Assembly: GCF_009914755.1 (NCBI RefSeq)
Contig: NC_060929.1
Direction: 5' to 3' (one strand)
Length of the DNA: 64,000 nt
DNA from: the human T2T-CHM13v2.0 reference genome, Homo sapiens
Shown: positions 753 to 26,400 of the stretch, piece after piece
Layout: each line of letters starts with the position of its first letter
How positions within the stretch are numbered: the stretch's first letter is position 1
Notes under the pieces: generated by a model
Told to the model about the DNA's origin: nothing
What the model saw: only the letters and a program-made list of their open reading frames with translations
Database searches by the model: none
Translations under genes and position numbers: made by a program

Positions 753-829
753 ATATCCTTTCATCATCTAGTATTCTTAAGGATTATGTTGGCATATAAG
801 TAGGCAGTTATAAGAAAATCATGTATTAA

Positions 830-1215
<386 letters not shown>

Positions 1216-1280
1216 TTGACATATTTTTATTAATAAAAGTTAGTAGTCTTATTTCTGTTAAGGTCTGTTTTTCTCTTTGG

Positions 1281-1568
<288 letters not shown>

Positions 1569-1677
1569 CAAAGTCTGTGTAACTCTTAAAGGTTTCATTC
1601 CTTTTTTAAAATAAATGTGTGAAAAACTGGTTATACGTCTAAGGTAATTTAAAAACAATTCTTTAACTGAAACTCAC

Positions 1678-8850: not shown

Positions 8851-10828
8851 TTGGCAGATTAACAGCAACAACAAAAAAGCCATGTTGAAATATCTTACTA
8901 TTAAAAATTAAATATTAAAATTAGACCGTTTAGCAACAAAATATTTTTAAAAGATACTATAAGTGGATTATAAGAAACCTTAACCCTAAACACTAAACGC
9001 TATTTGACCTTTTGAAGGGAAGGTAATCTGTACTTAATACTTGTAAAACAGCAAGAAACAGTCAATAGATAGTTGAACATAATCTGAAGTGGCTTTATAG
9101 CCTTTCTCATTGAGCATTTGTTACTATTTAGTATTATAAAATTAACCATATATATATTATATGAAGAAAGTAATTGTACAGGAAAATCTGATGTTGTTGC
9201 CAGATCTCTCTTTTGTTTAGTAAAAATGTCAGAATGGCATTTTGTATTTAGAATGAGGAGTTCTCAGCAGTATTTTCGAATTTTGTTAATATCCCCTTAT
9301 GAATTATTAAAGTCTTTAATAAAAGTTTTCAAATTGGTATCACAGAGGTTTTATTTATATAGAAATTTCTTTATAATTCTGCTCATTGTTTCTTGATATT
9401 TTCTCTAGTACAGTCTCTTTCATTTTATAAAAGTACTCTTTCTTCCTTTTGCTCCCTGTCTAAAGAGTGTTTGGCTCATATCACCATCACTTCAGGTAAA
9501 AAATGGTTCGTTTTCATTTAGTGGTCATTGATGTTTGGCCATTAGGAAATGATACAATATTTATTAACTTCTTGCTGGTTTTAAAATTCACTTCAGTATG
9601 CATTTTTAAATCTTCCTATATAGTATGAAAAGTAATGTTATAAATTTTGCCTTTCAAAAAAAAAGTTAATGATGCTCAAAAGAGATAGTTTTCTTGTTAT
9701 ATAGTAGTTACTATTAAGTCTTCACTTGAACAGAATATAATTGATCAAACTAATTAATTCATAATTGCGATTCTCCTGTTTTACAGAACTGGCCCTAAGT
9801 GAAGTTACGAAATAGGCATTTTATCTTAAATTTTTATTTCACTTATTTTTATTGTTTTCTTGGTACTCGCTAGTTACAACCAGTCTTAAACTTTGTCCCC
9901 CATTCTTTGCAATGCACTTCTCTCCCATCTTAACATCCTCTACCCAGGTACCCATTTTAACATTTTAGCAAGGTCCAGGTTGTGAGATCATTCAGTGCTC
10001 TCCTGTGTGTCTTTCATAATCTTAATTCATCACTGACCTCATCTTAAAGCAGGCTAAAAAATAATTTCAATCAATCAGTTAATAACTGATAGTTAAGAAT
10101 CCCAGTGTTGTTACATGTTTTAAAATGTTGATTAGGGCTTGGCTGAAAAGTAGTTTCAGTTGCATCTTATACCATGTAGACTATAAATAAGCATTCATGT
10201 TTATGTCAGATATGAATATATATAAACATCGATATGTGTATTTTTAAAAATTTAACATAAATATCTTACGCCTACCTCCCCTTTGTTAAGTGCCAATGTA
10301 GATTACTTTCTCTGCCTATGAATTAATTGAACTCTTGTGCTCACAAAAAAAAAAAAAAACCGCTTAAAATGATTTTTTGAAAAATATTGGGCTGTTTTTA
10401 AATATTAACTCGAACACTGATGTAGTCCGATGTACTTCCTGGGGGCAGTTTTATCACTGGACAATGATGAACTTTGTTGAGTACCACACATACACAGCAT
10501 TGTTGCTTTGCCACCTTGTCGAATCTTTTTAGATCTTGTACTGACTATAAATAGTTACCTTTGCTCCTCTGGGAAAACAGGAATAACTCTGACTTTATAT
10601 AATTTTGGACCTTCAGTTTTTCATATGCATTTTAAGTTTCTAATGTACATACTTCTTCAGTTAATATAGTTTGAACTTATGCTCTTCTTCCGTGTATTGT
10701 TATTAAATTTTCTAGTTTCAAATAATTAAAACAAGGTAACTATTTGGTTATATGGATTTATGTTTAATTCTAGAATTTTCCTTTTGCTTGTAGTTTTTTA
10801 TTTTCTTCTTCTTCATCTGAACTTGTAG

Positions 10829-11320
10829 AGCAGAGTAGGAACTTCAGTTCCTTTCTCACTGATTTGCCTGGGTGTGTGATAATTGAAAATTTACTTGAAA
10901 CCCAGTCAGATTCTGAGTCTAGAAAGTCCATCACCAGACTTGTCCCCCAAATCTCTACTTTATTCTGCTGTAACAGCACCACTCGAGAGCACAGATAAAG
11001 TTCCTTTTGCTTCATGGCTACAAAGTCAGTGGATTTTCTTTACTGATGAACTTGTTACAATTAATAGCTCCAGTGTTGCTCAGAAGGCATTCCAGAGATT
11101 GCATTGTAAAGCTGAAAATACTTTTAGGTTTCCTAATGCTTTGGATGGGATTTCTTCCGACAGCTGCATCTCTGAGGATCACAGTGACCTTTGCCTAATA
11201 TTAGATGTTTTGAAAATGTACCTGCAGAAGCAGCTAACAGTGCTGCTGCTACTTCTTCTACATCATCATTATTGCTTCTAGATTCTAGATTAGTTTCCAC
11301 TTTTGTTCAGATAAAGAATG
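10829..11320 (+). pseudogene. Frameshifted exon relic or poison-exon candidate, similar to the large SGIP1 cassette exon
   Basis: Pyrimidine tract 10794-10818 + TGTAG acceptor; ATG|GTATGA donor; 492 nt, phase 1-1; motifs VIIENL, PDLSPKS, WIFFTDE, AENTF across two frames. Confidence 0.7.
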
Positions 11321-17988: not shown

Positions 17989-18118
17989 CCCAGGCCATTC
18001 AGCCCACCTGTAACTTCCAACACCAGCCCACCTCCTGCTGCACCATTAGCCCGGGCAGAAAGTTCTTCTTCTATCTCATCATCTGCTTCATTGAGTGCTG
18101 CCAATACTCCAACAGTAG
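17989..18118 (+). CDS. FCHO2: FCHO2 coding exon [43 protein letters not shown]
   Basis: AAG acceptor, TAG|GTAAGT donor, 130 nt, phase 0-1. Confidence 0.96.
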
Positions 18119-18556
18119 GTAAGTGATTATCATCAATTACATGTGAAATGTAGTGTACAAAGTATATGTATGCTAAATATGTATATATTTTTAAATGGGC
18201 TAATGAAGAATTTAACATTATAAATTTTGTTTTTCTGGAAACACACCTGGAATTTATTAAACTGTCCATGCTTTGCTTTTCTGTTTCACAGTCTATGTTA
18301 TCTGGATAGAAGAATTTTAACTGTGGTTAGCACCGTTAAGAATGAGTTAAATTTATAAATTGCTGATCAATATAAATAGTTGAAGGCAAAACAAAATGCA
18401 GTTCTTCCTTCTGTGAACTGATAGTTGCATTTCTAAGAAAGTTTATGTTTTAAAAACAATAGTGTTTTGAAAATGATTGAATGAAAGAAAACAATTTGTG
18501 CTTGCAGTGAATTATATTTTTCCACAAGAATTTCAAGACTTAAAAATAGCTCTTAG

Positions 18557-19520: not shown

Positions 19521-20227
19521 CCCTAATTAAGCTGATTTAATTCCAGTTGATTTGTCAAGGCTCACATAGGAGAAATGCAACTAGTGTGTGGCCATTGTAA
19601 AAAGACGATAAGTAATATAGGCTAGAATGAAATATAAAATGGCTTGATTTCTAAATGTCTAAACATGATGTCACCATCTTATTACCTTTGTGAACACAGC
19701 ATTTTTCCCATCTTTTAATTTTATATAAACTGAATTATGTCTAATAAGTTTGCCCTTTGGTTTAATGAATACTTCATTTTTATTTTTTGTTTGTGTGGTT
19801 TTAATTTTTTCCCACAGAATCTATATTTTAGTCCTAAAAAACCTAACTGGGACCTACTAGAAAGCAGGCAGGTGGTCTGGGTAACCTTATTTTCGCTTTA
19901 GGTTTTTTTTTTTTTTTTCCAGTTATCTTTAGATTATTCAGGAGGTTTTGTGTTTGTGATGGAAACTTTAATTTCTATTGAATTGGTACATATTAGTTTA
20001 TGGTTTGAGACATTGCTGGCAATAGGACAACCAAAAGCAGGTGACAGTGATAATACAGGCAAGGCAGGTTGTATGTGAATTTTATACAACAAAGATTTTT
20101 AAAATCTACCTAAAAAGTTCTCTTTCTTTGCCATGATTTTTCAACGCTGTGTGGATTTAAGTTTCTGATTCTCCTTGTTTCTTGAAAATATTTTCTTTTT
20201 CTGCATTATTTTATTTAAATACAATAG

Positions 20228-20287
20228 AAGATGATAATTTGATTGGGACACACACTGAAATTGAAAAGCACTGTGAGACGTCACCAG
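20228..20287 (+). CDS. FCHO2: Candidate alternative 60-nt FCHO2 cassette exon (E)DDNLIGTHTEIEKHCETSP
   Basis: TAG acceptor after T-rich tract, CAG|GTATTG donor, no stop, phase 1-1; similar to recalled SGIP1/fish Fcho2 insert EDD...E(K/R)RCETPA at the same position. Confidence 0.65.
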
Positions 20288-20447
20288 GTATTGTATCAGA
20301 AGCAAATGTATGTGTTGACTAATGGTCCTTAAGTGTATCTAAAATATTTCGTTATCCAACTTTTCCTTTTCCAGAATTGTATGATGTCTCAGAAATCAAG
20401 AATTATGCTAAGATTAACTATTTCAGTTTTGTGCTAATTCCATCAAA

Positions 20448-20518
20448 TTGCTGTACAGGATCCATTATATCAAATCCCCAACTTGCTGAATAGGATCCAT
20501 TATATCAAATCCCCAACT
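20448..20518. repeat. 35-bp tandem duplication
   Basis: AGGATCCATTATATCAAATCCCCAACT identical at 20457-20483 and 20492-20518. Confidence 0.95.
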
Positions 20519-21368
20519 ATAAAAACACGATATTTTTGCATTTTCTTCTCTGCTTTCCTCAACTCAGCTTTAAGAAATGTCAATAAATCTTAATTCTAAA
20601 GCTATCCAAATCAGGTAAGAAGTCATCCAAAAAGAATTAAAAGGAATATGTCAGTTAAAAAAAAAACCTCTAATATCTAAATTAGTAGGGCAAAGGCTGT
20701 CATATACGAAAACCATACAGATGAAGTTAGAAGCATGGAGATGATAGGAGATAGTAGGGAGTGGGTGTCTGTGTTTTATTTCTGAGCGGAAAGGAATTCT
20801 ACATAAATATCCATTGATTGTTATAAGAAGGTACCCTATACCTGTTACGTACCTCAAGTTTATAAGCTCTCTACATTTTCAAAACAAAATTATCTAAATA
20901 TGTAACAAACCAAAATTAGAAACCACAATCTACCCTTATTAAGAGAATAAATTTTTATTTCTAAGAAATTATTTATTTGGAATAATACAGTATAGTTTTA
21001 GACTTTTTAAAAGACTATTTAAGTACATATTTCCTATTCATTTTTTGAAGTATCCATGTGCAATACGATCTTGAAAGAAAAACAAAAATAGAAAATACGA
21101 AAGGGAATATGCCAACTGTTAAGTGGGTTTTGAGTTTTTCTTCAACTTTCCAATACTTTTCTCTGCTTGCCAATGTTTCAGTAATGGCATAATTTACAGG
21201 GAAGCTAGGCATAATAATTTACAGAGTCGTGTTATGTGCCCAGATTAGATTGTTGAAAAGAATATTTATGCAGGTTTCTTTTAATTTTTAGTGTCAAAGC
21301 AGTAGTAGACATTAATGTTACCATTGACTTTATATAAATATTCATTTGTGTGAGTTACTCAAGAGACA

Positions 21369-21530
21369 TTTTTTTTTTTTAATGAGACAGGGTCTCACTC
21401 CATTGTCCAGACTGAAATTCAGGGATATGATCATAGCTCACTATAAGCTCAAATTCCTGGGTTCAAGCAGTCCTCCCACCTCAGCCTCCCAAAGTACTGG
21501 AATTACAGGCATGAGCCAGTACACCTGGTC
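21369..21530 (-). mobile_element. Alu monomer (FLAM/FRAM-like), antisense
   Basis: poly(T) GAGACAGGGTCTCACT...GGAATTACAGGCATGAGCC. Confidence 0.85.
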
Positions 21531-24078: not shown

Positions 24079-24190
24079 GTGTGTCACGGGGTCCCAGCCC
24101 TGTCAGCCTTGGAAATCAGGATACCTTACCTGTGGCAGTTGCCCTTACAGAATCTGTTAATGCCTACTTTAAAGGAGCAGATCCCACCAA
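24079..24190 (+). CDS. FCHO2: FCHO2 coding exon (G)[36 protein letters not shown], start of the mu-homology domain
   Basis: TAG acceptor, GTTAGT donor; lies within ORF 24006..24272. Confidence 0.96.
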
Positions 24191-24359: not shown

Positions 24360-26400
24360 GCATTCAATGTACATTCATTCATCAAATACTTGAGCACCTA
24401 TTATTTCTAAGACTCTGTTACATGTGCACTGAGGATACTTTAGTAAACAAAAGAGTTCTCTCCTGAGCTTGCATTATAGTGAGGGAAAACTAAATATCAA
24501 AGAAACAGCTGTATGTATTGGATATTGATACACGCTATGAAGAAAAATAAACCAGGGTTAGAGGCTAGAGAATAACATTAGATAGAGGGCTACTATTTTA
24601 GATAGAATGATCAGGGTAAACTTTTTTGAGGTTAATTTAAGCAGGTAGTTGAAAGACATGGAGGAGCAAGCCATGCAGATATCTGAGGAAAGTATTCCAG
24701 GAAGAGGGAACCAGTGAGTGTAAGATACCAAGGTAAAAGCATATTTGGTATATTCAAGAAACAGCAAGCAAAACCATGTCACTGAGTAGGAGTAAACAGG
24801 AGAGTACTTGAAGATGAGTCCGGAGAGGTATGAGACCAGGTTAGGCATTGTAGGCCATGATAAAGAATTTGGAATTTATTTTGAGTAACATGGAAAGCCA
24901 GTGGAGGCTTTGAGCAGAGGAATGATGAAATTACATGTGTTTTCAGAGGAGCGCTGGTTGCTGTATGGAGAATAAACTGGGGGCAGAGGGTGCGGTGGGC
25001 AGTCAGAATTGATGCAGAGAGAAAGTTAGAAAATTAATTACAGAAGTCCAGGTGAGAGATAATGGTGGCTTGTATAAGGGTATTAGCAGAGCAGGTGATG
25101 AGTAGTAATGAGATTCTGAATATATTTTGAGAACAGAATTGTCAAGATTTGTTGGAGGCAAAATGCTAAGTTTGAAGTTTAAGACATCTTAGTGGAAATG
25201 TTGAATTGATACTTGGATACATGATTCTGGAGTTCAAGGGGGTAAGTCTAGGCTAGAGATAAAATACTTGGTAGTGTAATTAGTTTGTAGATAATACTCA
25301 AAATTAGTGGCCTTAAGGAATAGATGGAAAAGAGATCTGAAAACTAAGTCTTGATTCCCTCCAGTGTTTAGAAAACAGGAAGATGAGAATGATTTAACAA
25401 AGGAATTTGAGAGAGCAAGCAGCAAGAGAGGTGAGGAGAGAACCAATAGACCCGTGTCTAGAAACTAAGTGAATAAATCATTTCTTGAAGGCAGTTGTGA
25501 ACCTGTATCTGATGCTGCTTGACAGGTCAAGAAAAATTGACCATTGACAATAATTGGTGACATTCACAAGAAGGATTTTAGTGGCATAGTGGAGATGAAA
25601 GTATGCTTTGAGAGTGTTCAGGAGCCGAAGGTGATGCAGTCTAGACAACTGTATTTGGAAAGAACAAATGCAGTTATTTCAGGATGTTTTGGTCTAAGTG
25701 GGAGCAGAGAAATGGAATGGTAGCAGGAGTGAGGTGGTGGAATCAAAGGAGGGTTTTATTTATTTTCATTTTTGTGTTTTTTAAAAGATGATATATATTT
25801 CAGCATGTCTGCCTGCTGATGGGAAAGATCCATTATTTACGGAAAAACAGGACTTGCAGAAAAAAGAGGGAACAATCACATGAATGAAGTCCTTCAGTAT
25901 ATAAGAGCAGATGAGTTCCAGTGCAGAATTGCTGGGATTGGCCTGAGGTGCAGAAATTGATTATCTGTTGAAACAGTATGGACTGCAGAATATATGGATA
26001 AAAAGTTAGGTAGATTTACTAGTGAGAGTATGAGGAAGTTATTTTTTTATTTCCTCAGTGAAATGAAGAGCACAGTCATCAGCTAAGAGTTGGGGGAAGG
26101 ACTATTGCAGGTTAGAGATAAAAGGGGAAGCTAGGAAAAGACCAAAAGAAGAATAAATAGACTTGGGAAATGTGATAGGATTACCAAAGGGGTCCAGTTG
26201 AGAGTTTTGGCTATGTAGTTATATGTTTCAAAGGAAGAAAGAATAGAGGGTTGGAAGAAGCAATGAGGAGCAAGGGCCTCCTTGCTACCATCACCATCAC
26301 CAGGCCCAGTGCTTTTTGGGGTTTGGGAGGGAAAAATAGCCACAACTAGGTATAGCGTTATGAGGAAAGCAGTATCCTTCCAGGGAGGGAATGGTTATCA
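24360..26400. mobile_element. Long L2 LINE fragment
   Basis: CATTCATTCATCAAATACTTGAGCACCTA...GGAAAGCCAGTGGAGGCTTTGAGCAGAGGAATG...GTCCAGGTGAGAGAT. Confidence 0.75.

What the first reader, a model, noticed from the sequence alone, without database searches (positions are those of the whole stretch)
20228..20287. Intact in-frame 60-nt cassette exon (EDDNLIGTHTEIEKHCETSP) just before the mu-homology domain
Seen in sequence: T-rich tract with TGC, then CAATAG|AAGATGAT...TCACCAG|GTATTG; 60 nt, no stop, phase 1-1, so it fits between TPTV (18118) and GVSRGPSP (24079). It is absent from the canonical 810-aa FCHO2 as I recall it. Recalled knowledge: SGIP1 variants and fish Fcho2 carry a 20-aa insert of the form EDDVF...FE(K/R)RCETPA at this junction; EDD, E-x-x-CET and the length all match. 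Inference: a possibly tissue-specific FCHO2 isoform, or a recently silenced exon, that could alter access of Eps15/intersectin/Dab2 to the mu-homology domain.
Basis: partly seen in the sequence, partly recalled or inferred. Interest (0 to 1): 0.75.

Follow-up and report, generated by a model that had tools for sequence, protein, structure and literature searches.

The report
Ancient optional exon in human FCHO2
A 60-base stretch inside the human FCHO2 gene is an intact optional coding exon that gene models of fish, birds and other mammals include and that the sister gene SGIP1 shares; humans likely splice it in only rarely, and it is predicted to add one short binding motif to this cell-uptake protein.

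Summary
Confirmed. 20228-20287 is AG|60 nt|GT, open, phase 1-1, and inserts 20 residues between V526 and G527 of FCHO2. The pattern alone is chance-level (30 such stretches in the window); homology makes it real. Human SGIP1 has a paralogous 60-nt exon in the same intron, and 201 retrieved FCHO2 records from fish to placentals carry the insert, including an orangutan model identical to the human peptide. The published SGIP1-alpha insert is a different, second exon that FCHO2 lacks. Human use is unproven. RefSeq uses only the acceptor, as a terminal exon; the donor is weak; human and orangutan changed a near-invariant Leu to His; 1 of 37 catarrhine records versus 12 of 66 others include it. The insert lies in the disordered linker, not in the mu-homology domain. 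My best mechanistic guess is an optional linear-motif module: placental copies start with an ExxxLI acidic dileucine that could bind AP-2 alpha/sigma2 (untested). It is already in public models of other vertebrates, I found no paper on it, and interest is modest.

The parts
20228..20287 (+). 60-nt phase 1-1 cassette exon encoding EDDNLIGTHTEIEKHCETSP, inserted between V526 and G527 (830-aa form)
   Evidence: orthologous insert in 201 FCHO2 records; paralogue in SGIP1
20200..20227 (+). 3' splice region: A/T-rich, weak pyrimidine tract ending TAG; acceptor used by other RefSeq transcripts (exons 20228-20250 and 20228-21400)
   Evidence: hub annotation table
20288..20293 (+). 5' splice site CAG|GTATTG, weak (6 of 11 U1 matches, no +5 G); not used by any listed RefSeq transcript
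   Evidence: hub annotation table
20228..20244 (+). codons for EDDNLI, an ExxxL[LI] acidic-dileucine match (predicted motif, untested)
   Evidence: 8 of 8 distinct placental and 14 of 17 bird/turtle inserts match, 0 of 11 fish, coelacanth and marsupial; 2.6% of shuffles
20251..20256 (+). His-Thr codons inside a short CA run, where most other placentals have Leu-Ser; shared with orangutan
   Evidence: Leu at position 9 in 34 of 36 distinct inserts
20288..20322 (+). read-through extension if the donor is skipped: 11 more residues then TAA, giving a predicted 557-aa protein without the mu-homology domain
20318..20323 (+). ACTAAT, a QKI-type consensus (recalled) 31 nt after the donor; one of 4 in the intron; weak lead only
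20582..20587 (+). first AATAAA downstream, candidate polyadenylation signal for the terminal-exon form
   Evidence: use not shown
17989..18118 (+). upstream annotated exon ending ...TPTV (phase 1)
24079..24190 (+). downstream annotated exon starting GVSRGPSP..., start of the mu-homology domain

Best explanation
This is an intact 60-nt coding cassette exon of FCHO2, shared with SGIP1 and present in FCHO2 models from fish to mammals, that likely is only a minor splice form in humans and, when included, would add a 20-residue motif-bearing segment to the disordered linker, predicted to give FCHO2 one more AP-2 contact through its ExxxLI motif. Shown: frame, splice sites, paralogy, orthology and protein-level conservation in placentals. 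Inferred: the exon predates the FCHO2/SGIP1 duplication; weak sites make skipping the default; inclusion is regulated. Most speculative step (about 0.25 alone): EDDNLI enters the alpha/sigma2 dileucine pocket as the soluble factor CCDC32 does, adding to the known N1-N3 and C blocks of the linker.
For: SGIP1 exon at G000:C1:66572324-66572383 has the same length, phase and intron. It is the best of 57,896 windows in the 29-kb intron (37, next 22). A profile from 35 non-ape FCHO2 inserts finds it at 25.4 bits and the window exon at 31.0 bits. Ray-finned fish FCHO2 inserts are 14-16 of 20 identical to human SGIP1 exon A. In the search not aimed at the insert, 13 of 120 listed proteins include it, 95 skip it and 12 could not be classified, so both forms are modelled (rat X1 with, X2 without). 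Across records carry it: 120 ray-finned fish, 1 coelacanth, 49 bird/turtle, 3 marsupial, 28 placental. The ape peptide is 16-18 of 20 identical to other placentals, while a neutral simulation at assumed distances 0.35 and 0.5 reaches 16 in 0.26% and 0% of 5,000 runs. Orangutan isoform X2 carries the exact human peptide. Human RefSeq already uses the acceptor (hub table). Precedent for a non-cargo ExxxLI binding alpha/sigma2: CCDC32 (PMC13267310, passages).
Against: None of the 10 human RefSeq transcripts uses the donor at 20287, and none of the 4 human-named proteins listed has the insert. Only 1 of 37 classifiable catarrhine records includes it against 12 of 66 others (Fisher p=0.03, but the records are clustered and not independent). 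Human and orangutan have His at position 9, where 34 of 36 distinct inserts have Leu. I saw no junction reads or peptides. The dileucine match is absent from fish, coelacanth, marsupial and SGIP1 copies, so it cannot be the ancestral function, and it was spotted post hoc (2.6% of shuffles). Most supporting records are predicted models.
Confidence: 0.55

Rival explanations
1. The exon is functional in other vertebrates but is effectively silenced and drifting in humans and other catarrhines; its frame and splice sites survive only because the loss is recent.
For: No human inclusion model (hub table); 1 of 37 catarrhine records; two adjacent substitutions, one at a near-invariant Leu; weak donor; the same gene holds a frameshifted remnant of another ancestral linker exon at about 10794-11320.
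Against: Orangutan, marmoset and capuchin models include it; the human acceptor is in use; human and orangutan peptides are identical and there is no stop or frameshift.
Confidence: 0.28
2. In humans the main use is as an alternative last exon: the acceptor is spliced, the weak donor is read through, and intronic polyadenylation yields a 557-aa FCHO2 with F-BAR and AP-2-activating linker but no mu-homology domain.
For: RefSeq exons 20228-20250 and 20228-21400 start at this acceptor and do not end at GT donors; in-frame TAA at 20320-20322 and AATAAA at 20582.
Against: Neither annotated end lies just behind a polyadenylation signal; 21400 lies beside a T-run and an Alu-like stretch, so the ends look like truncated predictions (inference). 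Other terminal stubs occur in the next intron (25788-25917), which suggests low-level splicing noise.
Confidence: 0.12
3. When included, the insert folds back on the mu-homology domain as a pseudo-ligand (two Phe seven residues apart in fish, loosely like tandem DPF) and limits Eps15/Dab2 access. Not exclusive of the best explanation.
For: Adjacent position; positions 8-20 are invariant in 9 of 9 distinct ray-finned fish inserts; the domain binds two consecutive DPF motifs (PMC4731787, passages).
Against: [quoted passage not shown]
Confidence: 0.08
4. Chance AG/GT pair in an intron.
For: 30 such open stretches in the window.
Against: Homology to SGIP1 and to 201 FCHO2 records at the same junction.
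Confidence: 0.01

Closest known systems
Orthologous insert in vertebrate FCHO2 records (Swiss-Prot FCHO2_DANRE; rat X1, pig X3, dog X2, Pongo abelii X2 models)
   Same: Same junction, length and frame; orangutan peptide identical, other placentals 16-18 of 20, fish 8-10 of 20.
   Different: No human RefSeq transcript includes it as a cassette; human and orangutan carry His-Thr for Leu-Ser.
Human SGIP1 60-nt exon A (G000:C1:66572324-66572383)
   Same: Same intron, 60 nt, phase 1-1, 7 of 20 identical residues, near-identical 3' half at DNA level (27 of 34 nt).
   Different: SGIP1 keeps the fish-like core and a +5 G donor; it has no ExxxL[LI]. It was not among the SGIP1 rows I saw in the neuron table (32 of 33 places).
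SGIP1-alpha C-terminal 20-aa insert (exon B, aa 550-569; PMC8740024, PMC6499997)
   Same: Also a 60-nt cassette at the same junction before the mu-homology domain; shows this junction is regulated: inclusion 0.87 in human ESC-derived neurons, 0.04 in mouse astrocytes (PMC11390650 table).
   Different: Unrelated sequence; FCHO2 has no counterpart in its intron (best score 18).
FCHO linker AP-2-binding blocks N1-N3 and C (PMC9054013) and the CCDC32 ExxxLI motif (PMC13267310)
   Same: Short motifs in a disordered region of a soluble endocytic factor that bind AP-2.
   Different: Those are shown by structures; the cassette motif is only a sequence match, and no FCHO2 dileucine site appears in the passages I read.

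Membership tests
Conserved frame-preserving cassette exon | AG/GT sites, length a multiple of 3, open in the gene's phase | tested here: met
Conserved frame-preserving cassette exon | Orthologous sequence conserved above neutral expectation, with both included and skipped forms modelled | tested here: met
   (protein level only; mostly predicted models)
Conserved frame-preserving cassette exon | Both junctions seen in human RNA | not testable with these tools
   upstream junction implied by RefSeq; downstream junction unannotated; no read data
Conserved frame-preserving cassette exon | dN/dS below 1 and conserved splice sites in orthologous DNA | not testable with these tools
   no non-human vertebrate DNA available
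SGIP1-alpha C-terminal insert (exon B) | Sequence homology to aa 550-569 of SGIP1-alpha | tested here: not met
   the homologue is SGIP1 exon A
Acidic dileucine motif [DE]xxxL[LI] | Consensus match in a disordered region | tested here: met
   linker disorder from bioRxiv 10.64898/2026.08.25.746950 passages
Acidic dileucine motif [DE]xxxL[LI] | Motif conserved across the exon's whole range | tested here: not met
   0 of 9 fish, 0 of 1 coelacanth, 0 of 1 marsupial distinct inserts; absent from SGIP1 exon A
Acidic dileucine motif [DE]xxxL[LI] | Binds AP-2 alpha/sigma2 | not tested
   needs a binding assay
RSK-docking DDVF motif (PMC11984722) | D/E-D/E-V-F present | tested here: not met
   absent from human and all amniote FCHO2 inserts; present in 6 of 9 fish inserts, coelacanth and human SGIP1 exon A
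Tandem duplicated mutually exclusive exons | A homologous twin exon in the same intron | tested here: not met
   no twin in FCHO2; SGIP1 A and B are unrelated and occur together in 2 unnamed SGIP1-like proteins

The most novel reading that the evidence does not exclude
Splicing of this exon switches on a sixth, so far undescribed AP-2 site in FCHO2, a dileucine mimic that arose in amniotes from an older FCHO2/SGIP1 motif and would compete with dileucine cargo; in apes the same exon is turning into an alternative last exon that makes an FCHO2 without the mu-homology domain.
Probability: 0.15. Interest if true: 0.62.

Novelty: new member of a known kind. Interest (0 to 1): 0.36.

Why it matters
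The FCHO2 linker study that names its source sequence uses the canonical UniProt Q0JRZ9 form, which lacks this segment. For SGIP1, mixing up splice forms caused conflicting results (PMC8740024). If humans include this exon in some tissue, there is an unannotated 830-aa FCHO2, variants at these 60 bases are being read as intronic, and the linker may have an extra AP-2 contact. If not, it is a clean, datable case of exon loss in the primate line, next to an older dead exon in the same gene.

Tried and rejected
Structure models of full-length orangutan and zebrafish proteins were uninformative: mean pLDDT 40.7 and 46.4, with even the mu-homology domain mostly under 50, so no fold search was run. 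A complex job of the zebrafish mu-homology domain with the 30-residue insert peptide returned no answer (score 0.00). The ESM Atlas gave only weak muHD leads (0.77). The RSK-docking DDVF idea was dropped for human FCHO2: the motif is absent in amniotes and variable in fish; SGIP1 and FCHO names were not found in PMC11984722 text or its 4 supplements, which may use other identifiers. No twin exon was found in FCHO2, and no homologue in the 10 kb before the matching FCHO1 exon. The 271-nt region is single-copy in the genome search. The QKI lead led nowhere: no FCHO2 in PMC7782589 supplements, PMC10202634 supplement unreadable, only a gene-level row in the truncated PMC12424749 file. No FCHO2 in the supplements searched of PMC6886504 (9 files, 2 not searched), PMC11390650 (file cut when stored) or PMC13429693. 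The FCHO2 exon in the SPICE preprint is 112 nt and so likely the downstream exon, not this one. A search for the peptide start and for estimated hg38/hg19 coordinates (one offset recalled) gave one hit, false on inspection.

Full report
Observation. The window reads ...tacaatag|AAGATGAT...TCACCAG|gtattg at 20228-20287. The 60 nt are open in phase 1-1. Placed between annotated exons 17989-18118 and 24079-24190 they add EDDNLIGTHTEIEKHCETSP between V526 and G527, giving 830 aa. The pattern by itself is common: 30 open YAG-60nt-GTR phase-1 stretches lie on the + strand. The sites are weak: the donor matches 6 of 11 positions of a recalled U1 consensus (13 annotated GT donors score 6-10), and the acceptor tract is 55% pyrimidine (15 annotated acceptors, 50-95%).

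Paralogue. I located the flanking exons of SGIP1 on chromosome 1 and scanned the 29-kb intron between them. The best of 57,896 windows is an AG|60 nt|GT exon at 66572324-66572383 encoding EDDVFYDKLPSFERRCETPA (score 37, next 22). Of 200,000 shuffles, 2 reach that score, and the next of the 30 window candidates scores 13. A profile built from 35 non-ape FCHO2 inserts finds the window exon (31.0 bits) and this SGIP1 exon (25.4 bits), with nothing else above 0 bits and no hit in 10 kb of FCHO1. A second 60-nt exon 1 kb further on encodes the published SGIP1-alpha insert (PMC8740024, first of 4 parts plus passages; PMC6499997, passages). It is unrelated in sequence and FCHO2 has no twin of it. By intron lengths it is the exon listed in PMC11390650 Table 1 with inclusion 0.87 in human ESC-derived neurons and 0.04 in mouse astrocytes (supplement rows). 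The exon paralogous to ours was not among the rows seen, and FCHO2 was not in the stored, truncated file.

Orthologues. A search with a downstream exon, not aimed at the insert, listed 120 of 1,384 hits: 13 include the insert, 95 skip it and 12 could not be classified. Two searches aimed at the insert (best 120 of 242, all 81) bring the total to 201 records and 36 distinct inserts: 120 ray-finned fish, 1 coelacanth, 49 bird/turtle, 3 marsupial and 28 placental records. They include Swiss-Prot zebrafish FCHO2 and an orangutan model identical to the human peptide. Fish inserts are invariant over positions 8-20 and match human SGIP1 exon A at 14-16 of 20, so the exon likely predates the FCHO2/SGIP1 duplication (inference). 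Among 65 of 150 unnamed distant representatives with a readable junction, clear A-like inserts occur only in close FCHO2- or SGIP1-like proteins; two carry exons A and B together. Placental inserts are 16-18 of 20 identical to the ape peptide, far above a neutral simulation at assumed distances. Most of these records are predicted models, and the database is clustered, so absences are weak.

Human status. This is the open point. The hub's RefSeq table shows the acceptor used in two terminal exons (20228-20250, 20228-21400), neither ending at a GT, and no transcript uses the donor. One of 37 classifiable catarrhine records includes the insert against 12 of 66 others (one of these a sturgeon); Fisher p=0.03 overstates this because the records are not independent. 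Human and orangutan have His-Thr where most placentals have Leu-Ser, and Leu at that position is kept in 34 of 36 distinct inserts. Against silencing: no stop or frameshift, identity with orangutan, and inclusion models in orangutan, marmoset and capuchins. Read-through of the donor hits TAA at 20320-20322 and would give a 557-aa protein without the mu-homology domain; an AATAAA lies at 20582. The annotated ends do not fit that signal.

How it most likely works. Weak sites make skipping the default, and inclusion adds a 20-residue module to the disordered linker, about 90 residues after the AP-2-binding C block (WDPLFGP at 427) and 15 before DTLPVA at 541 (blocks from PMC9054013, passages; linker disorder from bioRxiv 10.64898/2026.08.25.746950, abstract and passages). 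Known FCHO2 linker functions are short AP-2 motifs, so a further motif is the natural reading. All 8 distinct placental and 14 of 17 bird/turtle inserts begin with [DE]xxxL[LI]; shuffles give this 2.6% of the time. CCDC32, a soluble factor, uses an ExxxLI motif in the alpha/sigma2 pocket (PMC13267310, passages). The motif is missing in fish, coelacanth, marsupials and SGIP1, was noticed post hoc and is untested; I put it at about 0.25. Masking of the mu-homology domain is less likely, because the insert has no DPF and loses both Phe in placentals (PMC4731787, passages).

Compared with what is known. It is an ordinary kind of element, a conserved cassette exon, already present in public protein models of many vertebrates. 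Ten full-text searches (mostly read as listings) turned up no paper describing this FCHO2 exon or the SGIP1 paralogue. The library lacks most subscription journals, several supplements were truncated or unreadable, and I could not consult GENCODE or VastDB, so it may be catalogued there.

Verdict. Observation confirmed; real ancient exon (about 0.97); a minor but usable form in humans 0.55, silenced 0.28, mainly terminal exon 0.12. New member of a known kind, interest 0.36.

Noticed in passing
window 10794-11320 (+): Frameshifted, stop-containing remnant (527 nt between AG and GT) of a roughly 170-aa FCHO2 linker exon that is intact in marsupial, bird and fish models (tblastn 45-60% identity, E about 1e-40 for a marsupial query). 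SGIP1 has a 501-nt alternative exon at what looks like the same place (inclusion 0.06-0.34 in neurons). Not in the hub table.
   Followed up: partly
G000:C1:66572324-66572383 (L010): SGIP1 exon A contains a perfect DDVF RSK-docking consensus (EDDVF) that a canonical-isoform screen would likely miss; the unnamed SGIP1-like proteins have DDAF or DDSV instead, so conservation is partial.
   Followed up: partly
window 753-1677 (+): Annotated intron with AT-AC ends and ATATCCTT donor, a U12-type minor intron (type assignment from recalled consensus).
   Followed up: no
window 24079-24190 (+): A 112-nt FCHO2 exon, likely this one by length, was a parent sequence in the SPICE splicing saturation library (10.1101/2025.11.05.686847, one passage); skipping it would shift the frame.
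   Followed up: no
window 9402-9500 (+): Weak match (52%) to a 33-aa insert in a bat FCHO2 model (Phyllostomus X4); open in human over this stretch. Possibly another decayed or lineage-specific exon.
   Followed up: no
window 25788-25917 (+): Four RefSeq terminal exon stubs from two acceptors 16 nt apart in the next intron, none ending at GT.
   Followed up: no
window 18112-18124 (+): Upstream exon ends CAGTAG|GT with a possible second donor 4 nt earlier; whale and dolphin models lack one residue here.
   Followed up: no
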